DNA of 64,000 nt from Azolla caroliniana (taxonomy: Eukaryota > Plantae > Polypodiophyta): NCBI GenBank assembly GCA_043228905.1, contig JBHGNT010000022.1, positions 1,178,001 to 1,242,000 of the forward strand, read 5' to 3'. Every line of letters begins with the position of its first letter. Positions within the stretch are counted from its first letter, which is position 1. This document shows positions 2,600 to 26,056 of the stretch, piece after piece. Under the pieces are notes generated by a model. It was not told where the DNA came from. It worked only from the letters and a program-made list of their open reading frames with translations, and made no database searches. A program made the translations under genes and the position numbers.

Positions 2600-4850
2600 A
2601 CGAAGAGTATTTCTCGACTTTGGAGAAGCTGCAGCAGCTAGGGGTCATTGAGATTGGCGATGACACCCCTCACCCCATCGAACACATTGGCAATGTCCCT
2701 TTGAGCCATGTCGGCCAGAGAGGAATCATGGGAAATGTCTTGCATGTGCCGACAATCACCAAGAACCTGGTGTCAGTCGGACAAATTGTCGACTAGGGCA
2801 TGCAAGTTCGGTTTACTCACCTTGGGTTCTTTATTGAAGAGGAAGGTTGAATCATCGCTCAAGGGCGCTGAGAAGAGAGGATGTTTATCCTCGAAACGAA
2901 TGACGTAGACACCGCTATGTTCGCCAAAGGGCAGAAAATCAAAACAGGTATCAACTTCTGGCACAAGTGGTTTGGCCACATCAACTTCCCACGGCTTCGG
3001 GAAATGCAAACAAAGAATATCGTTTTCGGCCTGCCGAAATTCAATGGCCGAAAGGGCCAAGTTTGCGAATCCTACCAATTAGGGAAGCATCATCGACTTC
3101 CATTCCCCAATGAGTGCAATCGGAGCCGAAACAAGATCACTTTGATCCACTCGGATGTGTGGGGACCAACACAAAACGTGAGCATCGGAGGGAGCCGATA
3201 TTTCATGACCTTCACCGATGACTTCACTCGGCATACCTGGGCATGCCTGATTGAGAAGAAGAGCGAAGTCTTCTCCTGTTTCTTGAAGGTGAAGAGCCTT
3301 GCCGAATGGGAAACTAGATGAAAGATCAAATGCCTCGAGGCTAATGGCGGAAAGGAGTACTTTTTCGACCAGTTCTCTAGTTATTTGCAAAAGGAAGGAA
3401 TTCAACGTGAATTCTCCTGCAGATATACGCCGCAACAGAACGACATGGCTGAGCGAAAGAATCAACAATAGAGGAAGCGGCACGAGCAATGCTTGAGGAG
3501 AAGCATATGCCGAAGTTCTATTAGGTCGAAGCGTTAAGGACAACCATATACCTTTAGAATCAGACTTCTGCAAATGGAGGAGTGTCACCACATGAGCTAT
3601 ACTTCGGGAAGAAGTTGAATTTGGGATACTTGAGGGTGTTCGACAACATAACATACGTGCATGTGCCAAAGGAGAAGCGAAGGAAGCTAGATGCCAAAAC
3701 CGAGAAGTGTATCTTAGTCAACTACTTGGATGAGCAAAAGGGTTATAAGTGTTATAACCCCCAAATGAAAGAGGTCCGAGTAAGCGGAGATGTCGTATTC
3801 GATGAGGCGGCTTCATGGTACTTGCCCTCTTCTCCAACCCTTGTTACCTTCGTTCTGAATTTTGAGGATGAGGCCGAGATGCTCTTCGAAGAAGAAGAAA
3901 TCAGAACACTAGAAGAGAGTCTGGTCTCATTTCGGTTAAGTGGGTTGAATGAAGGATTGAGTCAGAACGATCTGTCAGATGTGGAGCCGGTGAGTCGTGG
4001 AGACTCAGTTGTACAATCCCCTCGCAAGGAACAAAGGAGACAACTTACATGCAAGGAGAAAGGGAAGATGAAGATGTCGGAGTACGACACAGATAATGCG
4101 GTGTCAGATCAGGGAGAATCTAACACCAACCGGAGTGAAGACGGACCTCAAGAGTTGAGGTTAGATGTGGTCAAGAGGGCCATTAAATCAATCAATGAGA
4201 AGCTACACCGATCGATTCGCCACAAGAAGCCAATGATCAGGTATGGTTATAATGACTATATGGCACATCATTATGCGTACATGGCGAAGGTGGCAGAAGT
4301 GTGTGAGCTAGAGAGTTATTACACAGAAGCGACAAAGGACACGAATTGGTGTGCCGCTATGGAGGAAGAGATGGCATTGCGTGCATTGGTGGCAAATGAG
4401 ACATGGGACCTGGTAGATGTCCCCAAGGGTGTGGCGTCGATCAGGCGTTGGTGGGTGTACAAGGTCAAGTACAACGTTGACGGCTCCGTCAACCGATACA
4501 AGGCTCGATTGGTGGTAGAGGGTTATGTGCAACAACGCGACATCGATTACAATGAGACGTTTACGCTGGTCGTGAAGATGAAGACCGTCAATGTTTTGCT
4601 AGTGGTAGCGCAACAAAGGGGTGGCATCTACATCAAATGGATGTAAAGAATGTGTCCTGCAAAGCAAGCTTCAAGAATAGGTATACATGGTACAACCCCC
4701 TGGATTTCTATCCAAACAGAACACATCAACAGTTTTCCGACTAAAGAAGTCCTTTATGGCTTAAAGCAATCCTCTCGTGCTTGGAACGCGAAAATCACGC
4801 AAAGGTTGCGTAGGATGGGGTTTGCTCCCTCATAATCGAACTCTTCCTTG
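2600..4850 (+). pseudogene. Copia A pol, part 1 (protease remnant, GAG-pre-integrase, integrase, RT N-terminus), with stops and frameshifts
   Basis: LHVPTITKNLVSVGQ, WHKWFGH, IHSDVWGP, FTDDFTR, KLDAKTEKCIL, YKARLV, LYGLKQSSRAWN; integrase precedes RT (copia order). Confidence 0.92.
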
Positions 4851-6467: not shown

Positions 6468-6556
6468 TGTCAGGAATAGTACTAAAGTAGAGAGGGAATT
6501 AGTACTAAAGAAGAGAAGTACTATTAGTACTAAGAGAACGGGACTGCGTAAGATTC

Positions 6557-6596
<40 letters not shown>

Positions 6597-6919
6597 AAGA
6601 GGGAGATAGAGAGGAAGAGAGAGAGAGATGATGATGATAACAGCTAATATATTATGTGAAGGATAAGTACAAAATGGCTAAGAGGCTTAAGACTAGCGTT
6701 GAACCAATTTGGTTCAATATAATGCCTAGTGCCTTCTTTTATACTATTCTCAAGAGTAATCTTGAAGCTTCTAGAATGTTCTAGAGAAATCTAGAATATA
6801 CATTAATTTCCTATAATAAAACTTAAATGACAATAATATCCTATGTATTACAATAGATGGTATAATGGTCAAGAGCTCGACCCATATAACATAAGGTCAT
6901 GGGTTCGAGTCTTGCCATA

Positions 6920-7863
6920 TCATGACACTCTCTCCCCCTTAAGGCGACGAGTGAAACGAGTCGGTGCTGATTGCGGACCGGGTTTGTCCGGATACTTTAG
7001 ATGGAACTCAGCAAGAAGATCCTGAGCATTGGCGACATGCTCGACGGGTTCCCAAGTACGTTCAATCGGACTATAGCCGAGCCAATCAACCAAATAATAA
7101 AGTTTGTTGCGAACAAATTTGGAGTCGAGGATGGTAGCAACTTCATACTCTGGGCCGACGTCTAACTCAAGCGGGGGCGGCGGTGGTGTAACACGATCTA
7201 GAAAAGTGTTTGCTTTATAAGGTTCAAGAAGAGAACTATGGAAGACCGGATGTATCCGAAGATGCGGAGGAAGATCAAGGCGGAACGTGACATCATTAAC
7301 CTTACCGGTAATACGGAAAGGACAGAGTCGGCGATAATCCAACTTGTCGCACGGTCGAGTAGTCTTGATGTGACGAAGTAAAAGCCATACTCGATCTCTG
7401 ATGGCCAAAGAGGAGGGAAGCCGATGACGATCCGCGTAAGTCTTCTATGTTTGTTGAGCATGACGAAGATGAGTAGAGAGATCCATCTGGATCTTGCGTA
7501 GTCTCTCCAAATGATCCCCAACACAAGGATTGGTAGGTAGCTCCAGGGTGTCGATCACCAACTAGCGAGGATGAGAACCGGTATAAGCGTAGAATGGGGA
7601 GACTCGAGTCGAGGAGTGAACAACATTATTATACGCAAACTCCGCAAAGTGGAGAATCTTGTCCCAATCGTCCTGTTGATAACTCAAGAAACACCGGAGA
7701 TATTGCTCCAGCGTTTGGTTTGTTCGTTCCGCCTGCCCATCGGTCTGAGGATGGTAGCCGAAGGAGAGGTTGCAAGAGACCTTGAGCATCTTGAAGAGAT
7801 GCTGCCAAAATTTGGAGACAAATTGCAGTCCTCGGTCACTGATGATACTGTATGGGAGGTCGT
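6920..7863 (-). pseudogene. Element D integrase C-terminus and chromodomain
   Basis: IISDRG, YHPQTDGQAERTNQ, IHPVFHSSLL, EYEVATILDS...YYLVDWLGYSPIERTWEP. Confidence 0.93.
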
Positions 7864-9618
7864 TGTCGCGAATTTTCACGCGCATGTGTTACTTGGGCGG
7901 GACCACAGGGGTCTCGGACTAGGGAGTACTCGAGGGATAGAGAAGACCCGAGGTTTGCTTTATGACAATACTACTTTCCCACCCCTTCCCGAGCAAGGTC
8001 TCGTTCCCCTTTTGTTTTGTGAGGCCGGTGGCTCTCGTTGATCACGACTCGTCGACCTTCCGAGATCACCGTACGACCCAAGTGACCAAACAAGTACAAG
8101 CAAGATGAGCACGCAACATGAACGCACAAGGGGACGATAACACAAACACGAATGTCCGTACGACTTTATGAGGAGGAGAGGTGCATGGGCGCGCCTGAAC
8201 ACTCCCTTGTGACAAGACGTCGAACGTACGAGGAAGACACAAAACACACGCACAAAATGCTCGTATGCCTTTATGAGGAGGAGAGGTGCATGGGCAAGCC
8301 CGAACGGTCCCCTTGTCACAAGACGGTCGAACGTACAAGGAAGACACAAACACACACACAAATGCTCGTACATCTTTATGAGGAGGAGAGGTGCATGGGC
8401 AAGCCCGAACGGTCCCCTCATCACAAGACGGCCGAACGTACAAGGAAGACACAAACACACGCACAAATGCTCGTACGCCTTTATGAGGAGGAGAGGTGCA
8501 TGGGCAAGCCCGAACGGTCCCTTCGTCACAAGACGGTCGAACGTACAGGGAAGACACAAACACACGCACAAAATGCTCGTACGCCTTTATGAGGAGGAGA
8601 GGTGCATGGGCAAGCCCGAACGGTCCCCTCGTCACAAGACGGCCGAACGTACAAGGAAGACACAAACACACATACAAATGCTCGTACGCCTTTATGAGGA
8701 GGAGAGGTGCATGGGCAAGCCCAAACGGTCCCCTCGTCACAAGACGGCTGAACGTACAAGAAAGACACGAATAAAGAAAGAAGGAGAGAAAGAAACACGA
8801 ACAATATTGACCAAAGAGTTAAATACGTGTTTGATTCTAATGCAAGAGGACCCTTTATAAAATAGGGTTTTGTTTACAATGGCAACTTATAGTTAACCAC
8901 AAGCTCAATCAAAACATAAATATTAAATGCCCTTAGAGACAAGGCAAAACCGAACACGGCGAAGACGAACACACGAGCACCACCAAAATGTCAATCCCAA
9001 CGAACCACGACCACCCGAACAGCAAGCACACGGGCTCGCAACGACGAACAGGGCGGAGCAACATCAAGCCAACGAAGCTTGGGCTCACGAGCACGTGGCG
9101 ATGGGGGGATGAAGGGGTATGAGATGAAGAAAAGTGGTGAATAAGGAGATGAAGAGCTTCGAAGGAAAATTGGCGATAGTCTCCTCCTCCCAAAACGTCC
9201 TTCGAAATGAGCCCCCCTCGACCTCTTTTTATAGGAAAAAAAGAAGGGGGGGGTCGCCAAAATTGTCTTCAATGAAAAAGGAATAAAATTCCTTAAATCA
9301 CACTACATTGTAAGACTAGATTTGAACCGTGCACCTCTAGCTAGTAGTCAATGTGATTATCCACTAACCCACTAACTCTTTCTTATATAATATATAATTC
9401 TATCTCTATAAATTTATAGCCTGTCTCCCCTCTACCCTTTATCTCACCTCTCTCTTACTTTTTGCACGAGCTTCTATACCTCCCTTTTACCCTTTCTTTT
9501 CCTTTTTATTTTGCATATGCACAATTAATCGCTTTTGTGTGCACACACATTGCACATGCACATTTTTTACCCCCTTTTCGCCGGTTTTTCCAACCCTTGA
9601 GCACGCCACATCACGACA
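7864..9618 (-). mobile_element. Element S: 1755-bp solo LTR of a family related to element E, inserted in D integrase
   Basis: Ends TGTCGCG...CACGACA; 4-bp TSD CCGT (left copy TCGT); shares GGGCGG.ACCAC.GGGGTCTCGGACTA and a CCTCT..TTTATAG TATA region with the E LTR; D integrase rejoins across it. Confidence 0.8.
8150..8770. repeat. Tandem array of six ~105-bp units inside solo LTR S
   Basis: TTATGAGGAGGAGAGG recurs at 8166, 8271, 8376, 8481, 8587, 8692. Confidence 0.95.
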
Positions 9619-11987
9619 CCGTGATGCCGAAATACCTCACGCATGACAAGGGCAACGATTACCTCACTAGTGATGGCCTTAGTACACGGCACAAAATGTG
9701 CCATCTTCATATATCGATCGACGACGGTTAAGATAGCATCGAACCCCTTCGAGACCGGCAAATCTGTGATAAAATCAAGACAAATAGACTACCACGGCTT
9801 ACTTGGAATCGGTAAGGGTTCCAACAAGCCATATCGATGGTGTTGTGGCATCTTTGCTCGGCAGCAAGCATCACAGGTCCGAACGTAGTCGTTGACAAAA
9901 CGTCGCATATGGGGCCACCAAAAGGATCGTTGAACTAGATCCAACGTCTTAGTGCTATCGAAATGTCCCGCCATATGGGTGTCGTGACAACTTTGGACGA
10001 TTTGAAGGCGACAGGAGCAATCGGGGACATATACAAGCTTTTTAAAGAATAACAAACCATCATGATATTCGAATTGGGTAGTCCATACCTGGTTGCTGAG
10101 ACTGGGAACAGGATGCCCGAGAGGTATCAATGTGCACTAGAATGTCTTGAGCAAAATTGTTCGTCTTCAAATTCGCACGTATGGTGTCGATAATATGGGA
10201 ATCCATTGGGGTGTGAAAAATCCGCGTTATGTGCAATCGTGTTGGTCCCAAGATTACTTGTTTTTTATTATCGAACGTGGGATCACCAAGACAAGGTGCA
10301 AGATATGAACGTCGTGATAGTGCATCTGCCTTTCCTTGTTGCTTCCCTGGTCGATATGTGATTTTGAAATCAAAACGTGTGAGGAATTGAGCCCACCTAG
10401 CTTGCCGTTGATTTAACACACGAGCGTTCTGGAAATAAGAAAGATTCTTGTGATCACTGAAGACAATGACCTGATGTGGAGAGCCCTCCAAAAAATGCTG
10501 CCATTGCACAAATGAATCCACGATGGCTAATAACTCCTTGTCATGTATTTCATAGTTGATTTCTGCAGCATCAAATTTGCGCGAATGGAAAGCCACAGGA
10601 TGTAACTCTTCTTTATCTCCTTGTTGAGAAAGGATGCTACCGAGGGCGAAATCTGATGCGTCGGCCTCCATGATGAATGGTTTGCTTGTATCCACATGGG
10701 CTAGAATAGGTGTTGATGTAAAGGCTTTCTTAAGATGCCAAAAAGCCAAATCCGCTTCATTGGACCAAAGAAATGCTTGTCCCTTCTTCGTAAGTTGTGT
10801 GAGAGGTAAAATAATCTTCGAGTAATCCTGTATAAACTTGCGGTAGAAGTTAGCAAAACCTAGAAAACATTGTACATCTCGTATTGACCGTGGAATTTGC
10901 CACTCTAGCACAATTTGGACTTTAGCTGGATCCATGGAGATGCCCTTTGAGGAGATAACATAGCCTAGAAATTCCACTTGCTTGCAGTCGAAGCTGCATT
11001 TTTCTAGCTTGGCATAAAGACCATTCTCGCGGACTCGGTTTAGTACTAATAGTACATGAGAATCGTGCTCTTCCTGGGTCTTCGAATAAATCAATAGATC
11101 ATCCAAATAGATGATCAAATAGATATCCAAGAGGTCTCTGAATATATCATTTGCCATGTGTTGGAAGATTGCGGGTGCATTGGTTAGACCGAACAACATA
11201 ACAGTATATTCGAAATGCCCATACCGCGTGCGAAAGGCAGTCTTCCATTCATCTCCTGGTCGGATCCGCACGAGGTTATACGCTCCTCGTAGATCGATTT
11301 TTGTAAAAAACTTGGCACCATTAACTCGCTCTAAAAGACTTGATATAAGAGGAAGTGCATACCTATTCCGGATGGTGACCTTATTTAAACCGCGGTAATC
11401 AACGACAAGACGAAGTCAGCCATCTTTCTTCTTGACAAAGAAGATGGGTGCTCCGACCGGAGATTTCGAATGACGAATAAACCCACTTGCCAAGTTCTCC
11501 TCTATGTTGGCTTGAAGGACTTCTAACTCGGTGGATGACAAGTTGTAGATTGGTCCCCATGGTGGCTCTGCTCCTGGTTGTAAATCGTAGGGACAATCGT
11601 AGGGACGATGATGAGGAAGAGTACCGGCTTTTACCTTGTCAAATACGTCGACATAAGGATGATATTTTGCCTGAAGTTGCACTAAGGATTCCTCCTTAAT
11701 ATTGCTGGAAGGATGTACTGATATGGCAAATAGGAACATTGCCTCCTTGTGTCCATCTTCGCGTAGTTGATGTAATGAAATGGTTGAAACTCGATGAGTA
11801 GATTCTTGGGGTTGCCCATATCGGACTTCTCTTGTTCTCCAATCTATGTCTGGATTATGTAGTTCAAACCAAGGTAATCCCAGGACAATGGGATGCTCTG
11901 GACCACTAATTATATTAAATGATACTACACACACAAAACTACCTAGGACAACCTAAATGGGTTCTGACTCCTCTACAATTTTCCCGG
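9619..11987 (-). pseudogene. Element D pol (protease C-part, RT, RNase H, integrase zinc finger), frameshifted
   Basis: WKTAFRTRYGHFEY, YLDD, EADASDFALG, YEIHDKELLAIV, H-H-C-C motif. Confidence 0.95.
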
Positions 11988-12679
11988 TGTCGCGTTGTTA
12001 CGCGCGTGCGTGGAGAAGGGCGGAACCACGGGGGTCTCGGACTAAGGAGAAGGGGAGAAGGAATAGGACTTCGGAATGGAGCTTAGCACAAGAAGAGAAA
12101 GAACGAACAAGAGGAAGATGGAGGCCAAATGCTCAACAAGATATATTAGAACCGAACACCGATTACAAAATGGCGGCCGCGTAGGCCGCACCAAACGGCT
12201 ATGATAAACCCGAAACCCTAATCCGACGAAGAAGAAAAGAAACCCTAACTAAGGAACCCTAAACGAAATGGTATACCTCACTCACACTCCAAAATAAGGC
12301 AACCCCCACAATGGTGCTCTTCCTCTCCCTTTATAGCACAAGGAGGGAAGACCGTTACATAAAAGGGTGCTACAAAATATCCCCTTTCAATCAATGGGGA
12401 TATTTCCCTTGATTTTAGGGGAGGTGGGAAGGATGGGTCTTAACTCCCACCTCTACACGAACTACTATGTACCTATCTCTCTCTCTCACGTGGATGTGCG
12501 CGCAAAAGCACATCACCTCTACACTTTACAAATCCTAAGGTGCATTTCTAGCACCATACTTATCACTATCGATAAATAGAAATACAACATGGTGATGTGC
12601 AACGTTGCACATCGCGGGTTTGCTTGCTTCGCTCGGTTTTCCGCCTATGGACGAAAATCTTCACGACATCCGCCCCCAC

Positions 12680-15600
12680 CTAACCGCACATCCACCGGTA
12701 TGTGCCAAAAGGGGAACAAAACGCGAGATTTTCGGCCAAGGCGGCCAACCGAGCCCTTGACAACCTCGTGGGCTTGCCCGGCTTCGTCTTCCACTTCGAG
12801 CAAGTCCACCCCGTCCACACGAACCACCGTCGCCTTCCGGCCCACCATCTCCGCCGAATGGTCTCGAACCGTCGGCTCCATCCGATCCGCCACATCCACC
12901 GTGTTTCCTCGAACCACCGACTACACTCGGACCGCCATATCCGATGCCCGCGCTTTCCTCTCCGTTCGGTCCTCCCGAACGCCGTTGCCGACCCTTTGTC
13001 CGTCTCGCATATCCTCCGGATCCGCCTTTTTCGTGCCGCGCACCTCGTCGTGCCGACTCTTCTCGCTCCGCGCTTGCCTTCCGTAGGCTTTCCCCGTACG
13101 TCGGTGTCGTCCTCCGAATGCGTGCTCGTGCTTCGGTCCTTTGATGACCCCATCACGCATTTTCCGCCTTCCCCTTGCTTGCCGTGCTCTCTCGCCGTAG
13201 AGCATACCATCGTTCCCGTGCTCGTTGCTTGGCCCTCATGCGGCCGTATTGCACGTTTCGCATTCCGCTCCTCTTCACGTACCCTTTCGGAAAGGTACCC
13301 TTCTTCCCCGACCTCCGTTTCGCTCGAAGGAACACCCTCTTGGCCCTCTTGGCCCGCTCGACCGCACACATCCTTCGTGATGTCGTGTTCGTTCCTTTGG
13401 GCGCATACATCTTCGTTCACCGCGACCTCCCGTATGCCTCTCTCGGTGCCTTCATCCGTTGTGGCCTTCGTCCCCTCGCCGCCACCGTCCGCCACTCTTG
13501 GTCTCACGTCGGCACTCGCGCCGATCGCCGGAGTCTCTATAGCCGGTGTGGAGGATCCCTCTCGGGTCTTATCTTCGTGGCCGCCGGTCTTAGCCTCTCC
13601 GTAGGCCACCTCTTCCCACCAATCTTCCCTAGCATCGTGCCGGGTCTCGTCGTCGCCGCCTTCCTCCTCGTATTCGCCTCTCGAAGGCGTGATCCGACCG
13701 TCATCTTCGGTCGCTCGATGTGGCTCCTTCGTAGGCATGCTTGTGTCTTGGCCCTCCATCGGCCGTATTGCATGCATCTCGTCTCGCTCTTCCGCCGTAG
13801 ACCCGACCTCCGTGTCGGTCCTCTCCTCCTTTGTCGCCGTAGCCCGTTCCGACACGGGCTCGCCGTCTTGGACCCACCCGTCCACCATCTCGTACCGGAT
13901 ATCCGTTCCGGTAACCTCGTACGCTCCGGCCTCCGACTCCTCGCCGCCACCCGCCGTTTCTCCGGTCTTATGTTGATCCGCAACCGCCGTAGTCTCTAGA
14001 GTGGGTATGGAGGGTCTCGTTTGTTTCCGTTTTTCCCCCGAACCATGGTCGTCGTGCCCGGTTAGCCTCCATCTCGCGCTTACCGGCTCCCATCGTAACC
14101 GTAACCGTAACCGTAACCGGCCAATCGGTCTCGCCGGCTTCCTTCGGTTTGGGCCCGGTTCGCCGGCCCTTACTCTCTTCTTCTTTCGTGCCGTACTCCG
14201 GTCGGGTCGGTTCCCGACTCTCTCCTCGTTTCCGCTCCGGTCCTCTCCGTCGGACCCACCGTATACGCCCATTCCGGGCCCCGCATACTCGTCTTCGTAT
14301 GCGCTCTCTCCGGGCCTCACCTCCTCACGGTCACCGCCCATCTCTCCGGTCTCACGTTGGCATTCGAGCACAACCGCCGAAGTCTCCGGCCCCGGTGTCA
14401 AGGGGTCTTGCCTCCGTCCGCTCCAATCTTCCTTCTCGTTTCCGTTGCCCGCCTTGCCGCCGTCACCTCCCGTCGCACTAAGCCTCATGCCGGCACTCGG
14501 GCCGGCCATTGGAGCCTCTAGGGTTGGTGTGGGTAAGGACCCGGCACCGCCGCTTGTTGTCTCCGTAGCCGCTTTCGTTCGGACGTCGTTGTCCGCGGCT
14601 CCCCCATCTCCGATTCCGTAAGCCTCTAGTATGCTTGCCACCACCTCTTCTTCGCCGTTTTCCGCGTCATCTTGTTTGCCCGCCTTGCCGCCGCCACCGT
14701 CCGTCGTTCTAGGTCTCGTGCCGGCACTCGGGCCGACCGCCGAAGCCTCTAAGGCCGGTGTGTGGAAGGTCGCGGCACCACCGCTCGCCTCCTCTCCGCT
14801 CGATGTTTTGGGCCGCCGTGCCCCGAATCTTCCGCCCACTTTCGAAGTGGCGCTCTCCGCTTTGTAGTCACCGGCCTCATCCTTGGCCGTCCATTCGCCG
14901 CAAGACGAGAGGGTTGCTCGCTCCGCACCCTCTCCCATGTCGTCATCGTTTCGGTTGCCCGCCTTGCCGCCGCCACCGTCCGTCACTCTAGGCCTCTCGC
15001 CGGCTCTCGGGCCGGGTGCCGGAGTCTCTAGGACCGGTGTGTGGAAGGTCGCGACACCACCACTCCTCTCGTCCGTAGCCACCTCCATTCGGACATCGTC
15101 GTCCGTGGCTACCCCGTCTTCGGTTTCGCAAGCATCGAGTATGCTTGCCGCCGCCTCTTCTTCGCCGGTCTCGTCCTCATCTCGGTTGTCCGCCTTGCCG
15201 CCGCCACCGTCCGTAGCTCTAGGTCTCGTGCCGGCACTCGGGCCGACCGCCGAAGCCTCTAGGGCCGGTGTGTGGAAGGTCGCGACACCATCGCTCGTTT
15301 CGTCTTCCTCCTCCATTTCGCAAGCCTCGAGTATGCTCACGAAATCCTCGTAGAACGTTTCGGGCAACCGCGTCCCGAAACTTCCGCCCACTCTCGAAGT
15401 GGCGTCCATCGCTCCGTAGATATCGGCCTCGTCCATGGCCGTTCTTTTTCCCCGAGATGAGACGGTCGCTTGCTCCGCACCTTCTCTCGTGTCGACGCCG
15501 TGGTCGCCCGCCTTGCCACAGCCACCGCCTTTCACCATAGGTCTTACGCGGGCACTCGGGCCGGCCGTCGTCATCTCCAGGAATGACGCGTGTAAGGTCG

Positions 15601-16894
15601 CGGGACCGCCGCTCGTCGATGTAATGTCCGCAGCCACCTCCGCTCGGACGTCGTTGTCCGTGGCTACCCCGCCTCCGTATATGCAAGCATCGGTTATGCT
15701 TGCCGCCGCCTCTTCCGCGGTCTCCTTTCCGTTGTCTCGGTTGCCCGCCTTGCCGCCGCCACCGTGCTTTTCCCTCGGTCTCACGCGGGCGCTCGGGCCG
15801 GCCGCCGGGGTCTCTTGAACCGGTGCATGGAAGGTTGCGGTACCGCCGCTTGTCTCCTCCGTACTCGATGATTCGGGCCACCATGTCCCGAATCCGCCAT
15901 GTCCGCTCGAATCGGCGATCGCCGCCTCACCGTCCCCGACCTCGTCCTCGGTCGTTCTTCCCCCCCATGTCGAGAGGGCGGCTCGCTCCGCACCCTCTCC
16001 CGTGGTACCGATGTACCATTCTCTTTCGGCCTCCGCATAGGCCCCGTCCTCCATGTGTGAGGAAGCTCCTTCCTCCGCGTCCTCCGATCCGCTCGGGCCC
16101 GACCCCGCAATAAGCCATTCTTCGGCTTCGATTTTCGCCATTACGAGCCCGCACGCCTCCCGTATTAGCGCTTGTAGGTCGAGCCCCTCCAAACCGGTTT
16201 GCGATGAGCTCTCGTCCGGCGGCATGGCGTAGTCGGTCGTCGCTCTCTCTTCTCCCCCGCTCGCGGGCCGTGTTGTGGCCGACCGCCTCGCCTCATGTTG
16301 CCGACACACCCATTCCACTTCGGGCCACTCCTCGGTGAGACCATGCGCCCCATAATCGTCTTGAAGCTCGAACATGATGTCCATCCTCTCCTCATGATGG
16401 ACCGTCTCCAAAAATAGGAGGACTTTGTCCGCCCCCACCGTTCTTCGTTCCCACTCCGAGAGTTGAGAGAAACGACGCTCGAACTCTCGGAATGCCTCTA
16501 TTGCGCTCCGATGGCGCCTCGCCGACGCCATCCACCGATCGAACTCTCGCCGACCTCTTACCTCCGATTCCGCGCACCCGTATGCCTCCATTAGAGCCCC
16601 TTCAAAGGACTCCCACGATTCGTGAGCTTCTTGGAGCTCCTTGACCTCCTCGTACTTTGATGCGGCCGCCGCTCGACGAAAGAACTCTAGCCTCGTCGCT
16701 TCGTCCACGCCCATCCCCGTCATTTCCGCATCGTAGGCTCTCAAAAATTTTGGGACCTCCTTCCCATCGAACCGGCCGACTAGACGGACCACCCTTTCGA
16801 CCGCTTGTTGAGCCGCCTCTCGCCTCGCCCTCTTCCGTCCGGCGTCCATCAAGATCTTTGTCATCATCTCCTCGAAGTCGAAGCCTTCTTCCAT
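12680..16894 (-). CDS. 1404-aa protein of element E: N-terminal Gag/capsid-like domain plus a long acidic Gly-rich higher-order repeat region; no PR/RT/RH/INT
   Basis: Uninterrupted ORF spanning PBS to PPT; RFDGKEVPKFLRAYD...SWESFEGALMEAYG...FREFERRF resembles Ty3 capsid; repeated ATFHTP..E...GPSAG.RPR.TDGGGGKAG motif. Confidence 0.8.
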   Translation of the reverse strand: MEEGFDFEEMMTKILMDAGRKRARREAAQQAVERVVRLVGRFDGKEVPKFLRAYDAEMTGMGVDEATRLEFFRRAAAASKYEEVKELQEAHESWESFEGALMEAYGCAESEVRGRREFDRWMASARRHRSAIEAFREFERRFSQLSEWERRTVGADKVLLFLETVHHEERMDIMFELQDDYGAHGLTEEWPEVEWVCRQHEARRSATTRPASGGEERATTDYAMPPDESSSQTGLEGLDLQALIREACGLVMAKIEAEEWLIAGSGPSGSEDAEEGASSHMEDGAYAEAEREWYIGTTGEGAERAALSTWGGRTTEDEVGDGEAAIADSSGHGGFGTWWPESSSTEETSGGTATFHAPVQETPAAGPSARVRPREKHGGGGKAGNRDNGKETAEEAAASITDACIYGGGVATDNDVRAEVAADITSTSGGPATLHASFLEMTTAGPSARVRPMVKGGGCGKAGDHGVDTREGAEQATVSSRGKRTAMDEADIYGAMDATSRVGGSFGTRLPETFYEDFVSILEACEMEEEDETSDGVATFHTPALEASAVGPSAGTRPRATDGGGGKADNRDEDETGEEEAAASILDACETEDGVATDDDVRMEVATDERSGGVATFHTPVLETPAPGPRAGERPRVTDGGGGKAGNRNDDDMGEGAERATLSSCGEWTAKDEAGDYKAESATSKVGGRFGARRPKTSSGEEASGGAATFHTPALEASAVGPSAGTRPRTTDGGGGKAGKQDDAENGEEEVVASILEAYGIGDGGAADNDVRTKAATETTSGGAGSLPTPTLEAPMAGPSAGMRLSATGGDGGKAGNGNEKEDWSGRRQDPLTPGPETSAVVLECQRETGEMGGDREEVRPGESAYEDEYAGPGMGVYGGSDGEDRSGNEERVGNRPDRSTARKKKRVRAGEPGPNRRKPARPIGRLRLRLRLRWEPVSARWRLTGHDDHGSGEKRKQTRPSIPTLETTAVADQHKTGETAGGGEESEAGAYEVTGTDIRYEMVDGWVQDGEPVSERATATKEERTDTEVGSTAEERDEMHAIRPMEGQDTSMPTKEPHRATEDDGRITPSRGEYEEEGGDDETRHDAREDWWEEVAYGEAKTGGHEDKTREGSSTPAIETPAIGASADVRPRVADGGGEGTKATTDEGTERGIREVAVNEDVCAQRNEHDITKDVCGRAGQEGQEGVPSSETEVGEEGYLSERVREEERNAKRAIRPHEGQATSTGTMVCSTAREHGKQGEGGKCVMGSSKDRSTSTHSEDDTDVRGKPTEGKRGARRVGTTRCAARKRRIRRICETDKGSATAFGRTERRGKRGHRIWRSECSRWFEETRWMWRIGWSRRFETIRRRWWAGRRRWFVWTGWTCSKWKTKPGKPTRLSRARLAALAENLAFCSPFGTYRWMCG

Positions 16895-16914
16895 CTCTTT
16901 CTCCCTTGCCGCCC

Positions 16915-16932
16915 TTCACGTCGGGTTCACCA
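16915..16932 (-). promoter_or_regulatory. Primer-binding site complementary to the tRNA-Trp 3' end
   Basis: Plus strand TTCACGTCGGGTTCACCA equals the 3' 18 nt of plant cytosolic tRNA-Trp(CCA) as I recall it; 4 nt from the 5' LTR. Confidence 0.85.
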
Positions 16933-17617
16933 AAGATGTCGCGTTGTTACGCGCGTGCGTGGAGAAGGGCGGAACCACGGGGGTCTCGGACTAAGGAGAA
17001 GGGGAGAAGGAATAGGACTTCGGAATGGAGCTTAGCACAAGAAGAGAAAGAACGAACAAGAGGAAGATGGAGGCCAAATGCTCAACAAGATATATTAGAA
17101 CCGAACACCGATTACAAAATGGCGGCCGCGTAGGCCGCACCAAACGGCTATGATAAACCCGAAACCCTAATCCGACGAAGAAGAAAAGAAACCCTAACTA
17201 AGGAACCCTAAACGAAATGGTATACCTCACTCACACTCCAAAATAAGGCAACCCCCACAATGGTGCTCTTCCTCTCCCTTTATAGCACAAGGAGGGAAGA
17301 CCGTTACATAAAAGGGTGCTACAAAATATCCCCTTTCAATCAATGGGGATATTTCCCTTGATTTTAGGGGAGGTGGGAAGGATGGGTCTTAACTCCCACC
17401 TCTACACGAACTACTATGTACCTATCTCTCTCTCTCACGTGGATGTGCGCGCAAAAGCACATCACCTCTACACTTTACAAATCCTAAGGTGCATTTCTAG
17501 CACCATACTTATCACTATCGATAAATAGAAATACAACATGGTGATGTGCAACGTTGCACATCGCGGGTTTGCTTGCTTCGCTCGGTTTTCCGCCTATGGA
17601 CGAAAATCTTCACGACA

Positions 17618-19065
17618 CCGGAAGCAATGGGACGACCATCAATGACTACTACAAATGCGGGGCAAGGAAGTTTTCTTAAGGATATCTGAGAAGCTTGGGC
17701 AAAATTTCGATCCATGAAACAGGAATTGGCTCCGGAATCTAAAAGTGCTAGGAGTTGTACTTGGGGAGTACTTTTAGTACTAACCATGATTTGGGCTAGG
17801 AACACATTGCTAACTTGCTTGGAGGGAATGGAACCACTAATGGGTTGTACAGATCTAGGGCTGTCCAACCAAACGGCTCCTATTTTTGCTAGACTCAATC
17901 GTTTAACTCTTATCTAATTGACTAAGGATTTCAAATTTGTTTGAGATACTTGGGCTATTAGTACTATTAATACTATCAGACACTCCTAAGGGAAAAATTG
18001 GCTCGGGTTTAGTACAGGCTACGATTTGATTTACCTATCTTCTTGGCCTATGGGGACAATTGATTGTGATATGCCCTAGTCCACCGCAATACAGACATAA
18101 TCGATTTGCACGGCGTCGTTGCTTTTCTTCTTCCGATAACGGGCCACGTCGATGCATGGTGTCAATCTCCATCGGTGTCGGAGTATTTTCTTGGGGTACG
18201 TCGCGTGCGAACGCTTTAGCCTCGACTGAGGCGTATGTGGGCTCCGGCCTAGAGCGTGGTATTTGTAATTGACGTTCGGAACGTCGTTCGAAAAGGCGGT
18301 TGTCACATCGGACCGCTCGACTGATTGCCTCCGTAAGAGATTTTGGTTCTTCGGGGAAGGTTAAAAGTAAATCTTTTACATCGTTTCGCAAGCCATAGCG
18401 AAACTGCTCCATTAGTGCCTGATCATCCCAGGGAATATCAGAGGCGAGTAGAAGGAAATCCGCCGCGTAGGCAGAGGCTGGACGATCGCCTTGACGCAAT
18501 CGCCGGATCTTGTTGATCATCATCCTGATGTTGTTGGTGTCTCCAAAGCAAGCTTTAAACTCACTAATAAAATCTTCAAAGTTATTAAGCAAGGGCAATT
18601 GTTTTTCTAGAAGCGGAGCGAACCATGCTAAGGCTGAGCCACTAAGCAACGTGCCTATTAGGCTAACTCGGGATGCATCAGTGGGGTATCGGGAAGGATG
18701 CATTTGGATAACTAATCGTACCTGATTAAGGAATCCCCTGAATTGCGATCGCGTTCCATCAAATTTCACAAGAAGTCCAATCTTCGACTCTTTATGAAAT
18801 CGTTGGGGACTTGATCCTTGTTGTTGCAATGCTGCTTCGAGTTGTTGTACCCGTAACGCTAACTCCTCATGTTGTTGCTACGTTTGTTGTTTTTCTAGAG
18901 CAATTTGTTGCAGATCCCCTATCAACCGTTGGTTTTCTTGTTCCAAGGAAATGAAATTTTCTTTTAGGCACGTTGGTTTTCTTGTTCCAAGGAAACGAAC
19001 TTTTCTTTTAGGCACTGTAGCTCAAAGAAAACGGATTGATATTCTTGGGCGCTAACAGTAGCCAT
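17618..19065 (-). pseudogene. Element D gag (zinc knuckle CLYCGGLGHITINC) and protease N-part (LLDSGA)
   Basis: Homologous to G gag; broken by a 44-bp tandem duplication (~18927-19014) and stops. Confidence 0.93.
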
Positions 19066-19590
19066 AGTATAGGGAAAAGGGTAGGAGGATGAGGGAGAAA
19101 GACAAGTAGGTTGGAGGAAGGCAAATTAGTTCAAACTGTCAGGAATAGTACTAAAGCAGAGAGGGAATTAGTACTAAAGAAGAGAAGTACTATTAGTACT
19201 AAGAGAACGGAACTGCGTAAGATTCCCGAGAGAGAGAGAGAGAGAAGAGAAGAGAGAGATAGCGAGGAAGAGAGAGAGAGAGAGAGAGAGAGATGATGAT
19301 AACAACTTAATATATTATGTGAAGGATAAGTACAAAATGGCTAAGAGACTTAAGACTGGTGTTGAACCAATTTGGTTCAACATAATGCCTAGTGCCTTCT
19401 TTAATAGTGTTCTCAGGAGTAATCCTAAAGCTTCTAGAATGTTCTAGAGAAATCTAGAATATACATTAATTTCCTATAATAAAACTTAAATGAAAATAAT
19501 ATTTTATGTATTACAATAGATGGTATAATGGTCAAGAGCTCAACCCATATAACATAAGGTCATGGGTTTGAGTCTTGCCATATCATGACA

Positions 19591-21845
19591 CTTCTTATAC
19601 CACTGTCTCGGTGCCTACTTTAGGCCGTATAGACTATTCCTAAGTCAGCAGACTAGATGTTCTTGGCCTGGATGCCACAAAGCCTTTCGGTTGCTCCATA
19701 TAGATTTCCTCCTCTAAGTCAATTCGCCTGCATCCATGAAGAAGACTCCAAAAGAGTACCCCTCCAGGGGCTGCGACAATCTCTCGGATCTTCGAGGTAT
19801 GATTGGACTAATCGCATCAGGTGTCAGAGTCGGTTGGTCCAAAGCCGAGTCATTCGGTTGTGCTAAGTCGGGTACTGGCGAGTCGGTGCTAGAGGATTCA
19901 GCTACCCATGAAGCTGACCTTGTGTTATGGGTTGGGCCTTCGTGATGGCAAGTCTGAGAAAACTAGCCTTCGGACTTCAATAGGCCTTTCGATTGTCTTA
20001 TGCATAGCCGACTAATTGAACACTACATCCGAACTTCGGACGATATGTTTGTGCTCAAGGTCCCAGAGTCGGTATCCAAACTTGCAGTCTGGTCCATAAC
20101 CGAGGAAAATGCATTACCTAGTCCTTGGTGCAAGTTTGTGGTAGTCGTCTTTCTGTATGAGGGTGTATGCCTCGCATCTGAAAATCCTAAGCTTGTCATA
20201 ATTCGGCTTACTGTCAATCCATAATTCCTGAGGTATTCGAAGTCCTAGAGGCCTACTTGGCGACATATTGATTATGTGTATTGCCGTAAGTAGGGCCTCT
20301 GCCCAGGAGCCATCCGACAACCCGGAGTGTTGGAGCATGGATACTATCCTTTCCTGAATTGTCCTATTCATCCGCTTGGCAATTCCATTCTGCTCCGGAC
20401 TATAGGGTGTCGTATATTCACGTCGAATGCAGCGTTGTTGGAAAAATTTGACGAATTCTTCAGACTTAAACTCTCCTCCATTATTGGTTTGAAGGCATTT
20501 CAACTTTCGACCGGACTGGTTCTCTACCATAGCGCGCCAGCCTTGCTGAGGTGCCCGAGTTGTCCATGCCATAGTGATGACACGGGAATGTCAACCAGGA
20601 ACAAGTCACCCTCTTTAAGTGTGACGTATAACTGGTACATCAAATGTACTTTCAGTCCTTGAGCAAGCAGGAGATTCCCCCTGTGCATTCTCCACCCTCC
20701 TAATCAGAAGCTGGCACAGATGTCGTGTTCCTCAAGTTGTCCGACTAAGATCAATGGTCTTGAGAGCTCAAGTACATGTTGAACATTATGTAGTATCAAT
20801 ATAGAGCCACTTGGAAGGTTGAGCTCTAATGTGCCGATTCTAATTATGGAGTGTTGTGAATTTCCGACTCAAACTAAGTCAAAGTGTCGGGCCAAGTATT
20901 GTCAAAATTGTGATATGTTAGGAGTCACATGATAAGACGCACCTGAATCCAAGAGCCATGTGCTCGATTCCTCAATCGTGAGCAAAACATCTGATTCAAT
21001 TGGGTTCTCAATGTATAGTATGTTGGGATCGTTCGACAATACTTTGGCTGAAGAGCCGACGTAATTGACCTCCTCATGTCAGACACTCTTTTGATCAGCT
21101 CATTGAGCCATATCATTCTTGGCTTTGAATGCACAATAATGAGCTTTGATGTACTTGGGTTTCTTGCAATAGTTGCATATTCGATTGTCTTAGGACTTCG
21201 TTGGTTGTTGGGTTGTCGCGAAGAGCTTCTTCCTCGACTGTTCGATTGGTCAGTCGAACCTTCTACTACGTAAGCGTTGTTGGCCAAATCATTTGCAAAT
21301 GATTTTCTCCGAGCTGCTTAAATCAGAATTGCACTCGTGACTGAGGAGTATTTAATGGCAACAATCAACGCGTTGCACACAGTAGTGACGAAAGTTTCCC
21401 ATGAAGGGGGGAGACTGCTCATGAGCAACATTACTCTCAGTTCATCTTCGATCGTCATCCCCTACGCAACTATTTGGGAGCTTAAGCTTTCATACTCGTT
21501 CAAGTGTGCCTGGACCGAGTCGAATTCTTTCATCTGATGGTTGTAGAGGCGCTAAATCAAATATATCTTTGTGGTGGTGACCTTCTTCTCATAAGTGTTT
21601 GACAATAGGTTGCCGAACACAATTGTACTGTGAAGTACATTGACTATGACAAGTGCATTCGAATTGTGGCACATGTCTAGCTTCTATCATTCGTTCAGCT
21701 TGTATCCTTCTGGAGCATTTTCGTTTTCAATGGGGTTGATTTGCCCCTTGACTATAAGATAGTCTTGCATCTGCTCCTTCCAAAAGTTGAAGTTCGATCC
21801 GTCGAACTTCCTTAGACTCATCTTTGATAAGCCGGATGTTGATGT
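19591..21845 (-). pseudogene. Copia C gag, protease, integrase and RT fragment with internal deletions
   Basis: LRKFDGSNFNFWKEQMQDYL, LQTNNGGEF, PEQNGIAKRMNRTI, RKCIFLGY, EEEIYMEQP. Confidence 0.88.
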
Positions 21846-22524: not shown

Positions 22525-24335
22525 ATGGAAGAATTGTTAGGCGGCATGTTCAAGCTCACCGGCTCCAACTACTCAGTGTGGAAGTCAAAGATGAGGGATA
22601 TGCTGGTGGTTAAAGATCTTTGGTTGCCGGTTCAATGGGCTGATACACCAAGCTACCTTGTTGGAAGTACCTCTCGCGGATGAAACACTCGCATTGCTCC
22701 TGCTTGGTTCCCTCCCAGATAGTTGGGAGACGCTAGTTTTCACATTAGGCAACGCCGGGCCGGAAAAAAAACATTTGTCCCTAGCAAGACTCAAGTCAAG
22801 CTTGCTAGATGAAGAAGCTCGCTGGAAGGACCGAGAGTTCAGAACCGATCCGAAGGCCTTGGTCACGGAAGATGACCACAACCGGGGAAGAGGCCGGTAT
22901 CAGAGTCCCCAAAACCGAGACAAATCGGGGATGAGGTCGAAGTCAAGGGGGAGGCCTACTTGCTTCTACTGTGGGAAGTCGGGGCACTTCCAAAAGAACT
23001 GTCGGCATTTCCGGAAAGAGAAAGAAACCAGCACTACCGATTCGAAGAAGAGTTCGGACTGAAGAGGCCCGGATCGGAAAGGAATGTCGGCAATTGCGAC
23101 AAGTGAAGAAGAACTGATGCTCATTACCGAAGAGAATGAGTTAAACCTTGACTGCGACGAGACAATGTCGGTTGTCGATTCCAGAGCGTCGTTCCACCTG
23201 TCACCGGATCGGAAATGCTTCTCATCCTACATAACCGGTGATAATGGTTGTGTTCGGATGGGGAATGAAGGTACATGTTGAATTGTCAGCATAGGAGATG
23301 TGTTGTTGACGACATCAACCGGATGCAAGTTGTTGTTGAAGGATATCCAACACGTTTTGGAGGTTCGATTGAACCTGATATCAGCCGGTCGGCTAGATGA
23401 TGAAGGCTACACGGGTAGCATCCGGAACTAAGTTATGAAGTTCAGCAAAGGAAGCCTGATTGTGGCTCGAGCCCCGAACACCAACACGCTATATCTGATG
23501 CATGCCCGGATATGCCGGGAAGAAGTGAACGTAGCATCTGACACTGTTGGTGAGTTGTGGCACAAAAGACTGTGTCACATGAGTGAGAAGGGGATGAGAA
23601 GACTTGCCGAAGACAACCTCATTCTGGAGGTGAAAGACGTGCACCGATTGCTTGGCCGGCAAGCAAAACCGAACCTCCTTCCGGTCAAGACCACCGATGA
23701 GACGGAATGCACCACTGGAGCTAGTGCATACCGATGTGTGTCAAGTGGATACGAAGTCACATGCCGGATCGCAGTACTTCGTGACATTCATAGATGACCA
23801 CAATCGGAAGTTGTGGGTCTCACCGTTACCGTTGAAGACGAAGGATCAGGTGCTATCCATCTTCAAGGAACTCCAAGCGGAGTGGAAAGAGAAACCAGTC
23901 GGAAGTTCAAGGCCGTTTGAGCAGACAACGGAGGAGAATACTGGGGGCAATTCGAGGAGTACTGCCGATCAAAGGGAATCCGGCTCAAATTTACCGTGTC
24001 GAAGACGCCGAAACTAAACGGGTTGGCTGAACGGATGAACCGGTCCGTGATGGAGAGATTCCGGAGCATGTTGGCACATGCAAAGTTACCCAAGACGTTT
24101 TGGGTTGAGGCACTGATGACGGCAACCTATGTGATAAACAGATCACCCTCAGCACCCTTGGAAGGAGACTCACCGCAGAAAGTACGGACCGGTAAAGATG
24201 TATCTTACTGGCATCTGAAGGTGTTTGGTTCTCTTGCTTATGTGCATGTTGCAAAGGACAAGAGAGCAAAGTTGGATCCAAAGTCCAGGCCATGCATATT
24301 CCTTGGATACGGCGATGATGAATTTGGTTACCCGG
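22525..24335 (+). pseudogene. Copia F gag, protease and integrase
   Basis: FKLTGSNYSVWKSKM, LLGSLPDSWE, CFYCGKSGHFQKNC, WHKRLCHMSEKG, VHTDVC, NGLAERMNR, CIFLGY. Confidence 0.92.
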
Positions 24336-24630
24336 TGTCATGATATGGCAAGACTCGAACCCATGACCTTAGGTTATATGGGTCGAGCTCTTGACCATTA
24401 GAACATCTATTGTAATACGTAGGATATTATTTTCATTTACATTTTATTATAGGAAATTAGTGTATATTCCAGATTTCTCTGGAACATTCTAGAAGCTTCA
24501 GGATTACTCCTGAAAACACTATAAAAGAGGGCACTAGGCATTATGTTGAACCAAATTGGTTCAACGCCAGTCTTAAGCCTTTTAGCCACCGTTGTATATT
24601 CTCTTCATATAATAAATATCTTTCTTATCA

Positions 24631-24687
<57 letters not shown>

Positions 24688-24793
24688 GTCTCGCTCACTT
24701 CTTCCTTCTCTCGAAGAAGTTCCACACCTCTCATAGTACTAATCCTTCGTTCAATACTAATTCCTTCTCTGTCTCAGTATTGTTCATGACAGT

Positions 24794-24805
24794 TTGAACC
24801 AATTT
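24794..24805 (+). promoter_or_regulatory. Non-tRNA primer-binding site, complementary to LTR 24553-24564 (predicted transcript 5' end)
   Basis: TTGAACCAATTT is the reverse complement of AAATTGGTTCAA, which lies 33 nt after TATAAAAG (24520). Confidence 0.8.
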
Positions 24806-24864
24806 TCCTACCTTCTGTCTCTCTCATTTCCTACTAATCTTTTATTCCTCTTTTCTTTCATCCC

Positions 24865-26016: not shown

Positions 26017-26056
26017 GTCCAGCCAAAATAGGAGCCGTTTGGTTGGACAGCCCTAG
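26004..26056 (+). promoter_or_regulatory. Predicted -1 ribosomal frameshift signal between gag and pol
   Basis: G TTA AAC in the gag frame, 6-nt spacer, 11-bp stem (26017-26027 with 26038-26048); conserved in D. Confidence 0.7.

What the first reader, a model, noticed from the sequence alone, without database searches (positions are those of the whole stretch)
11988..17617. Freshly inserted pol-less LTR element devoted to one 1404-aa Gag-repeat protein
Seen: two 681-bp LTRs with no differences visible by eye, a perfect CCGG TSD, an 18-nt tRNA-Trp PBS and a PPT. One unbroken ORF starts ~20 nt after the PBS and stops inside the PPT. It has no protease, RT, RNase H, integrase or CCHC motif and is much more GC-rich than the host DNA. 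Known: gag-only non-autonomous elements (TR-GAG) exist, and Trp-primed gypsy elements occur in non-seed-plant lineages (Phygy/Selgy, from memory). Inference: the element borrows Pol in trans but keeps its own capsid fused to ~1100 aa of acidic, disordered repeat. That tail could help it hijack helper particles, form condensates or counter silencing. I do not recognise this architecture.
Basis: partly seen in the sequence, partly recalled or inferred. Interest (0 to 1): 0.85.

Follow-up and report, generated by a model that had tools for sequence, protein, structure and literature searches.

The report
Capsid-only retrotransposon with filler tail
A plant jumping gene with identical end repeats carries a predicted capsid gene but no copying enzymes, so it likely borrows them from complete relatives, and its long protein tail changes freely in sequence yet stays free of stop codons, likely because being translated to the end protects its RNA.

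Summary
Observation confirmed: identical 681-bp LTRs, CCGG TSD (empty site seen in a paralogue), PBS, PPT and one 1404-aa ORF without pol or zinc knuckle. Residues 7-207 model as a two-lobed Gag capsid (Arc/Ty3-like). The element is a non-autonomous member of a Phygy-like gypsy lineage, probably in a fern. It is a multi-copy family, likely transcribed. Autonomous gag-pol relatives share its LTR ends, TATA region, PBS and PPT block, and are the likely helpers. New here: eight pol-less relatives form one old capsid clade; the capsid N-lobe was lost twice; the capsid is under relaxed purifying selection (dN/dS 0.2-0.5), whereas the tail matches neutral expectation (0.66-0.91) yet has no stops where 7-9 are expected, and runs to the PPT at lengths of about 400-1200 aa. 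Best reading: the tail is mostly filler that keeps ribosomes running to the 3' end, replacing the protection from nonsense-mediated decay lost with pol; a loosely acidic disordered function is the main rival. Against: a capsid-less relative has lost the frame, and some copies are frameshifted. Gag-only elements are known (TR-GAG, Sabrina/WHAM).

The parts
11984..11987 (.). Target-site duplication CCGG, left copy (fits the Phygy NCGN preference)
11988..12668 (-). 3' LTR, 681 bp, identical to the 5' LTR; TATAAA at 12335
12669..12708 (-). Conserved ~40-nt 3' block ending in the G-rich PPT; shared with autonomous relatives (L016 and L078 at 93.8% over 48 nt including the LTR start); holds the ORF stop codon
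12680..16894 (-). Single ORF, 1404 aa: Gag capsid plus long low-complexity tail; no protease, pol or zinc knuckle
12683..13294 (-). Basic, Arg/Trp-rich C-terminal ~200 aa, with a 45-nt unit of variable copy number (1404 vs 1419 aa); possible RNA-binding stand-in for the missing knuckle (inference)
13295..14314 (-). Mostly non-repeated acidic low-complexity tail (aa 861-1200), with one repeat unit at 13477-13550
14436..16014 (-). Diverged in-frame repeats: six ~116-nt cores at 231-318-nt spacing, nested in ~510-555-nt units; dN/dS among units 0.86
16274..16573 (-). Capsid C-lobe (aa 108-207); kept in all eight pol-less relatives; dN/dS 0.17-0.42
16574..16876 (-). N-terminal helix and capsid N-lobe (aa 7-107); deleted in five of eight pol-less relatives in the tree
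16915..16932 (-). Primer-binding site, 18 nt, 4 nt from the LTR (the commonest spacer, 62 of 102 related PBS matches); tRNA-Trp assignment recalled, not shown by a call
16937..17617 (-). 5' LTR, 681 bp; TATAAA at 17284 in a motif shared with autonomous L044 and L038; last 30 nt identical to L044 and L100
17618..17621 (.). Target-site duplication CCGG, right copy
6468..19592 (-). Host: an older chromovirus (chromodomain-bearing gypsy element; LTRs 433 of 455 aligned bases identical), interrupted in its protease region by this insertion

Best explanation
This is a pol-less LTR retrotransposon with one ORF spanning PBS to PPT, whose first 207 residues are predicted to fold as a Gag capsid; it likely uses the protease, RT and integrase of autonomous Phygy-like relatives, and its tail is likely kept for being translated without a stop rather than for its sequence. 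Shown: the anatomy, the multi-copy family, autonomous relatives with matching cis signals, purifying selection on the capsid, neutral-rate amino-acid change in the tail, and a deficit of stop codons. Inferred: the RNA starts in the 5' LTR and is translated almost to its 3' end (about 400 nt of 3' UTR instead of about 4 kb if translation stopped after the capsid). Autonomous relatives appear to have a -1 frameshift into pol, a type of recoding that shields RNAs from nonsense-mediated decay; an element that lost pol lost that shield, and a filler ORF would replace it. The capsid domain likely joins helper particles and favours its own RNA; helper RT then primes on the shared PBS and PPT, and helper integrase inserts the copy at NCGN sites.
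For: Fold: AlphaFold pLDDT 93.1; VIA-align ranks 1-15 are all Gag-type capsids (dArc1 Z 10.1, 158 aligned, rmsd 8.1; Arc N-lobe Z 9.0, rmsd 1.9; Arc C-lobe Z 8.5, rmsd 3.0); Atlas nearest clusters are Retrotrans_gag/Ty3_capsid at 0.93. Family: five further 1419-aa variants on 4.6-5.1-kb contigs, the size of the internal region plus one LTR; 20 of 24 listed runs from 11 studies hold the stretch. Contigs join the tail to the PPT and LTR (X1 record 2, X11 record 1, X19 record 23). Helpers: of 7 distinct loci with a whole internal region, 3 are gag-pro plus pol (L014a, L016, L078), 3 are pol-less with an ORF reaching within 90 nt of the 3' block or past it (L014b, L033, L047), and 1 is a ~200-nt mini element (L096). 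Shared LTR end, PBS and leader 79-84% over 100-124 nt in 7 of 8 autonomous loci compared; the eighth (L065) shares only 27 nt. A GGATTTTT site at the gag-pro end in 5 of 5 autonomous loci. Selection: capsid C-lobe dN/dS 0.42 and 0.22 against neutral 0.81 and 0.74 (11 of 400 and 0 of 400 simulations as low); tail 0.91, 0.66 and 0.86 against neutral 0.81, 0.66 and 0.82. Stops expected 9.4, 6.6 and 3.3, observed 0 (1, 4 and 59 of 2000 simulations). 14 of 22 homologous proteins examined end at or near the PPT, at lengths from 618 to 1419 aa. Expression: in three guessed-RNA runs and one untyped run the host flanks fall to depth 0-17 while the element is covered (peaks 29-1789), whereas in four DNA runs the flanks are at 38,802-280,633, far above most element bins. 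Precedent: long 3' UTRs trigger NMD, and readthrough or frameshift elements protect (PMC6277124, passages).
Against: No experiment on NMD, translation or packaging; the NMD link is inference. A capsid-less relative with tail remnants (L046; the same short first ORF in L024, L083, L106) has no ORF over 181 aa in 2.1 kb, so an open frame is not needed by every relative. 8 of 22 proteins end early: P0174, P0234 and probably P0003 by frameshift, the rest possibly at contig ends or foreign junctions; these proteins were picked by length-limited searches. Asp+Glu is enriched in the coding frame in all four tails (0.155-0.184 against 0.06-0.13 in the other frames; z 4.6-10.5), which points to some protein-level constraint. 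L014b's internal repeats give dN/dS 0.47 (0.30-0.79). The filler idea does not explain why the tail is kept rather than deleted. The capsid is only 31-35% identical to the candidate helpers' capsids, and its dN/dS is 3-5 times theirs (0.06-0.12), so co-assembly is uncertain. The 47 listed read differences give 4 non-synonymous to 1 synonymous in the capsid, no sign of purifying selection in that small set. Foldseek alone gave no hit at E<=0.001. The RNA label of the runs is a guess by the tool.
Confidence: 0.55

Rival explanations
1. The tail is a functional disordered region selected on composition, not sequence: an acidic spacer plus a basic Arg/Trp-rich end that binds RNA in place of the missing zinc knuckle, helping the capsid enter helper particles or condensates.
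For: Asp+Glu enrichment is frame-specific in clades of very different GC (0.44-0.46 against 0.61-0.63). A Trp-rich motif near the C-terminus recurs in the window, P0004, P0005, P0017, P0180, L033 and L047. The C-terminus is net basic in the window and L014b. The frame decays in the relative that has lost the capsid. No knuckle is present, whereas 4 of 4 autonomous gags checked have one.
Against: dN/dS is neutral throughout, including 1.17 in aa 1201-1404. Tail length varies about threefold. Net tail charge ranges from -63 to +10. Order-promoting residues are not depleted against shuffles.
Confidence: 0.3
2. The element, above all its N-lobe-less relatives, works as a dominant-negative capsid that restrains the autonomous family, like Ty1 p22/p18, while still being copied.
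For: The N-lobe was lost twice independently while the C-lobe stayed under purifying selection. Ty1 p18 is a Gag fragment related to Arc that blocks assembly (PMC8458377, abstract). Drt2 appears at Z 6.5 in the fold search.
Against: The window copy has both lobes. These families keep complete cis signals and transpose, which needs working helper particles. No binding or interference data.
Confidence: 0.1
3. The open tail is a passive leftover: recent tandem expansion of a T-poor coding unit, not yet decayed, in a one-off deletion derivative.
For: The sense strand is T-poor (about 11%) and the repeat spacings are multiples of three. Some copies are frameshifted.
Against: Simulations on the real sequence with the observed substitution spectrum expect 9.4 and 6.6 stops, with none seen. 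The eight pol-less capsids form one clade at 100/100 with deep branches. The tail has no blastn or tblastn match to eight autonomous loci beyond the terminal block.
Confidence: 0.05

Closest known systems
TR-GAG elements (Chaparro et al. 2015, PMC4350172; abstract, first of two parts of Results, and Discussion read)
   Same: LTRs, PBS, PPT and TSD with one Gag ORF and no pol; multi-copy and transcribed.
   Different: Defined as under 4 kb with a 5-bp TSD; TR-GAG1 has a 433-aa ORF with a zinc knuckle, no internal duplication, and no autonomous partner found. Here: 5.6 kb, 4-bp TSD, 1404 aa, no knuckle, a repeat-bearing tail, and candidate helpers found.
RLG_Sabrina and RLG_WHAM with RLG_Wilma in wheat (Wicker et al. 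2021, PMC9744471; passages read)
   Same: Old semi-autonomous Gag-encoding families with minimal internal homology to the helper but shared PBS, LTR termini and a TATA-side motif; several derived variants with novel coding segments.
   Different: Sabrina_SA encodes Gag plus protease with a tRNA-Asp PBS. The passages read give no dN/dS ('purifying' has 0 occurrences) and describe no PBS-to-PPT filler ORF.
Phygy clade of non-chromovirus Ty3/gypsy (Neumann et al. 2019, PMC6317226; passages and supplementary file 5 read)
   Same: 4-bp NCGN TSD and Trp-type PBS; capsid 29-33% identical to Physcomitrium, Riccia and Adiantum gags, several with DUF4100; partners without chromodomain or aRH hits.
   Different: Described there as a Physcomitrella-specific clade of autonomous elements of 7.7-10 kb; 'non-autonomous' has 0 occurrences in that paper's main text.
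Ty1 p22/p18 and DRT2 (PMC8458377 abstract; other papers seen only as a search listing)
   Same: Gag reduced to the capsid C-terminal lobe, as in five relatives here.
   Different: Those are restriction factors from a subgenomic RNA or a domesticated gene; here the C-lobe forms sit in mobile elements and are fused to a long tail.
NMD evasion by RSV and plant RNA viruses (May et al. 2018, PMC6277124; passages)
   Same: The problem of a long 3' UTR after a 5' ORF; protection by continued translation.
   Different: Those use RNA elements or low-level recoding; here the proposal is a fully translated filler frame, untested.

Membership tests
TR-GAG | Two LTRs (TG...CA), PBS, PPT and TSD | tested here: met
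   the TSD is 4 bp, not the 5 bp of the paper
TR-GAG | Single ORF similar to Gag capsid, with no protease, RT, RNase H or integrase | tested here: met
TR-GAG | At least two copies | tested here: met
   Variants in other assemblies and high depth in read sets; the window's own genome was not held
TR-GAG | Length at most 4 kb | tested here: not met
   5,630 bp. It works like a TR-GAG but is not filed as one; PMC13570524 (passages) also reports Gag/protease families above the size limit
Phygy clade | Placement by RT, RH and INT phylogeny with REXdb references | not testable with these tools
   The element has no pol, and the REXdb sequence files (additional files 1 and 3) were too large to read
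Phygy clade | 4-bp TSD with NCGN preference | tested here: met
   CCGG; table
Phygy clade | PBS complementary to tRNA-Trp | tested here: inconclusive
   An 18-nt TGG-starting PBS is conserved in 100 of 121 loci; the tRNA identity is recalled, and no tRNA gene was found
Phygy clade | No chromodomain and no aRH in pol (tested on the autonomous partners) | tested here: met
   No Chromo or second RNase H family in the three complete pol ORFs L014a, L016 and L078 at E<=0.01; absence of a Pfam hit only
Phygy clade | Gag related to Physcomitrium gypsy Gag | tested here: met
   P0077 (Physcomitrium) E 4.3e-15; DUF4100 in long homologues and in partners
TatI (4-bp TSD, tRNA-Trp) | Additional aRH domain in pol | tested here: not met
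   One RNase H region only in the partner pol ORFs
Selgy | tRNA-Ala PBS (90%) | tested here: inconclusive
   Table; this PBS matches the recalled Trp end rather than Ala, but no tRNA sequence was retrieved
Ty3/Arc-type Gag capsid | Two helical lobes matching CA-NTD and CA-CTD | tested here: met
   (each lobe Z 8.5-9.0, rmsd 1.9-3.0); Foldseek weak, with dArc1 and Arc at ranks 1-4, E 0.58-1.2
Semi-autonomous partner system (five criteria of PMC9744471) | Shared PBS, LTR termini and promoter motif with an autonomous family | tested here: met
Semi-autonomous partner system (five criteria of PMC9744471) | Matching subfamily structure and insertion ages | not testable with these tools
   No whole genome held

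The most novel reading that the evidence does not exclude
An old lineage of retrotransposon parasites keeps a kilobases-long reading frame under selection for openness alone, as a translational shield that replaces the frameshift protection lost with pol, while its capsid has twice shrunk to a p22-like C-lobe and still rides in the particles of distantly related helpers.
Probability: 0.4. Interest if true: 0.72.

Novelty: new variant of a known kind. Interest (0 to 1): 0.52.

Why it matters
Why gag-only retrotransposons keep an ORF, and what their Gag does, is left open in the TR-GAG paper. This lineage splits the question: one part is conserved as protein (the capsid C-lobe) and another only as an open frame. 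If the shield reading holds, RNA surveillance shapes the architecture of non-autonomous elements, and long repeat-rich ORFs in pol-less elements need not encode useful proteins. The natural series (full capsid, C-lobe only, capsid-less, mini element) with identified helpers makes this directly testable. It also extends the Phygy-like lineage, with parasites, beyond the moss in which it was defined.

Tried and rejected
No whole genome was held, so there is no copy census or age distribution. Pfam on the ORF and its first 230 aa: no hit. Profile search of PDB sequences: two unrelated hits at E 0.67 and 0.98. Atlas on tail aa 330-860: no usable hit. Homologue search with the tail: 5 hits, all family members, among the 7,990 best-scoring candidates of 772-2457 aa; proteins over 2457 aa were not searched, so a longer in-frame fusion is not excluded by protein search. 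Tail as a remnant of helper gag or pol in any frame: nothing beyond the terminal block. The antisense ORF 12702-13604 (+, 300 aa) and the second-frame ORF 12661-13152 (-) have no Pfam hit; I treat them as shadows of a GC-rich frame, not tested further. RNA fold of the last 92 nt of the internal region: z 0.08, no unusual structure. Attempts to retrieve a tRNA-Trp gene: 31 viral loci with no tRNA, and no match in genome contigs. No RNA holder is listed on record; RNA status is a guess. Copy number from contig depth (element unitigs 275-475 in X1, 1,647-2,451 in X3, 429-571 among the well-matching long pieces in X8, against the lowest variant depths of about 10, 36-42 and 11-14) suggests tens of copies, but the tool says depth is not copy number. 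P0121 was a false repeat hit. No complex prediction was sent: capsid lattices suit that tool poorly. Not in print as far as searched: five searches listed no paper on gag-only Phygy-like elements or on a filler ORF in a non-autonomous LTR element; I saw only listings for most hits, and subscription papers are not covered. Dropped rows: dN/dS used only ungapped in-frame codons of blastn matches (1,017 kept and 21 out of frame dropped for window against L014b; 572 and 2 for L033 against L047); the tree used 25 hand-picked rows with usable capsid sequence; L013 duplicates L014; the read-difference count used the 47 in-ORF rows visible out of 488 and 326 places.
Full report
1. Observation. The element is at 11988-17617 on the minus strand. 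Its two 681-bp LTRs are identical. It sits in the protease region of an older chromovirus (6468-19592). A second copy of that host family at 24335-30036 lacks the insertion and shows one CCGG, which fixes the TSD at 4 bp. The PBS (16915-16932) is unique in the window. One ORF of 1404 aa starts 20 nt after it and stops at the PPT; shuffles give 27 or more stops in all 500 trials. With a recalled plant LTR rate of about 1.3e-8 per site per year, 0 differences in 681 bp bound the age at under about 0.2 million years; the rate in this host is unknown.

2. The N-terminus is a capsid. Pfam is silent, but phmmer found 298 representatives at E<=0.001. Of 31 proteins scanned (longer hits and family members), 8 carry DUF4100 and 2 of those a gag protease match; 3 match Retrotrans_gag weakly. 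Named ones come from Physcomitrium, Riccia and Adiantum. A model of aa 1-215 from a 40-row alignment has pLDDT 93.1. VIA-align puts Gag-type capsids at ranks 1-15, with each lobe matching separately at low rmsd; these Z values (7-10) are in the range that the tool calls middling for helical proteins, so the case rests on the agreement of the ranks with the Atlas result and the sequence links. Foldseek had no hit at E<=0.001, though Arc and Ty3 capsids led its list.

3. Lineage. The REXdb table gives Phygy a 4-bp NCGN TSD (100%) and a tRNA-Trp PBS (81%), TatI 4 bp with Trp and an aRH domain, and Selgy tRNA-Ala. The element fits Phygy. The tRNA assignment of the PBS is my recall; three calls found no tRNA gene to confirm it. 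The additional files with the reference sequences could not be read, so membership by phylogeny is open. The host is probably a fern: that comes from earlier unreviewed notes on this genome and fits the relatives found, but I did not test it.

4. A family, not an accident. Five other 1419-aa variants differ from the window protein at 49-53 alignment columns (15 from one insertion) and from each other at 2-20, on contigs of 4.6-5.1 kb. Twenty of 24 listed runs, from 11 studies and four organism labels plus metagenomes, hold the stretch. In four DNA runs all parts of the internal region are covered, with long pieces of similar depth within X1, X3 and X8. In three guessed-RNA runs and one untyped run the high-copy host flank nearly vanishes while the element remains, which suggests transcription. 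Contigs of two studies end at 12292 and 12281, 43-54 nt past the TATA box of the 3' LTR, a weak hint that the 3' UTR is about 400 nt.

5. Helpers. Autonomous elements have a ~710-aa gag-protease ORF with a knuckle, then pol in another frame with RT, RNase H and integrase, and no chromodomain. They share the LTR 3' end, PBS and leader, the 40-nt block before the 3' LTR, and in L044 and L038 the TATA region. L044 and L100 share the last 30 nt of the LTR exactly. They are as GC-rich as the element. This meets three of the five partner criteria in PMC9744471; the other two need the genome.

6. An old parasite clade. In a 25-row capsid tree the eight pol-less rows group at 100/100, with L002 and then autonomous L065 as sisters, apart from the L015/L016/L078 helpers that match best in cis. 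The N-lobe is missing in P0004, P0005 and L014b, and separately in L033 and L047. Capsid identity to the helpers is 31-35%, little more than to moss and liverwort gags (27-33%).

7. Selection. Autonomous gags have dN/dS 0.06-0.12. The parasite capsid has 0.17-0.42 in the C-lobe and 0.33-0.51 against nine partial loci, three of which carry stops; simulation puts the neutral value near 0.75-0.8. The tail has 0.91 (934 codons), 0.66 (459 codons) and 0.86 among internal repeats, each inside the neutral range; L014b's own repeats are lower at 0.47. Yet no stop occurs where 9.4 and 6.6 are expected. L014b, L033 and L047 were found by PBS, not by ORF, and all three are open from PBS to near the PPT although GC differs by 17 points. 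They are probably collapsed assemblies, so they reflect the replicating lineages. The listed joints whose inserted letters are shown and fall in the ORF mostly have net lengths divisible by three (five of five that I worked out by hand), but several do not or cannot be resolved.

8. Against. Eight of 22 proteins end early, at least two by clear frameshifts, as expected of dead copies but not proven to be such. The L046 group has lost both capsid and frame and recurs in four loci. Acidic residues stay enriched in the coding frame, and a Trp-rich C-terminal motif recurs across the clade, so the tail may have a loose protein role.

9. Mechanism. Borrowed pol is about 90% likely. For the tail, I favour selection for uninterrupted translation. 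Long 3' UTRs trigger NMD, and low-level readthrough or frameshifting protects; a translation-linked route to transposon silencing is also reported, with low GC3 as a mark (bioRxiv 10.1101/2020.04.08.032953, passages; PMC12535099, passages). An autonomous element has a frameshift; a pol-less one that still makes capsid would stop 4 kb from its 3' end unless the frame runs on. This step is inference.

10. Verdict. A real, young, gag-only retrotransposon of a Phygy-like lineage. The class is known (TR-GAG, Sabrina/WHAM); it fails the TR-GAG size limit. The knuckle-less capsid with a neutral but stop-free tail, the repeated N-lobe loss and the identified helpers were not found in five literature searches. 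New variant of a known kind; interest 0.52.

Noticed in passing
window 7864-9618: A second insertion in the same host element: 1,755 bp, ends TGTCG...CGACA, flanked by TCGT/CCGT (NCGN, one mismatch), 78% like this LTR's end over 64 nt, with 105-bp tandem repeats at 8137-8771; likely a solo LTR of a related family.
   Followed up: partly
window 24336-30036: Young, apparently intact chromovirus (gag, then 1177-aa pol with chromodomain; LTRs 443 of 445 identical; 5-bp CCCGG TSD).
   Followed up: partly
L014 1-12351: An autonomous element followed through an LTR by an N-lobe-less pol-less element whose 3' LTR is of another type; either an assembly chimera or a template-switch product between helper and parasite.
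   Followed up: partly
L010 35-3217 (+): A 1047-aa ORF right after the PBS that joins a Gag-like start to RT, RNase H and integrase without a capsid match, followed by a second Gag start at 3815: a possible pol-only (BARE-2-like) form, or a misassembly.
   Followed up: no
L001 847-2718 (+) (also L086, L113); L061 827-2767 (-) (also L117): Elements with the same PBS and a 614-636-aa ORF that has no capsid, pol or Pfam match: further pol-less families with unknown proteins.
   Followed up: no
L096 (619 bp): Mini element with only about 200 nt between PBS and the shared 3' block: a TRIM of the same lineage.
   Followed up: no
L046 1222-3344 (also L024, L083, L106): Relative with tail remnants, a 12-22-aa first ORF, no capsid and no long frame.
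   Followed up: partly
window 38643-40046 (-): 467-aa Tc5/pogo-type DDE transposase frame, next to a 113-bp tandem array at 40042-41246.
   Followed up: no
window 41517-42869 (+), 34173-34997 (-), 3558-4646 (+), 20114-20590 (-), 22595-23062 (+): LINE-type RT and ORF1-like remnants and copia fragments; none of the 19 frames scanned looked like a host gene.
   Followed up: no
window 12702-13604 (+): 300-aa antisense ORF over the tail's end, His/Arg-rich, no Pfam hit; treated as a shadow frame.
   Followed up: partly
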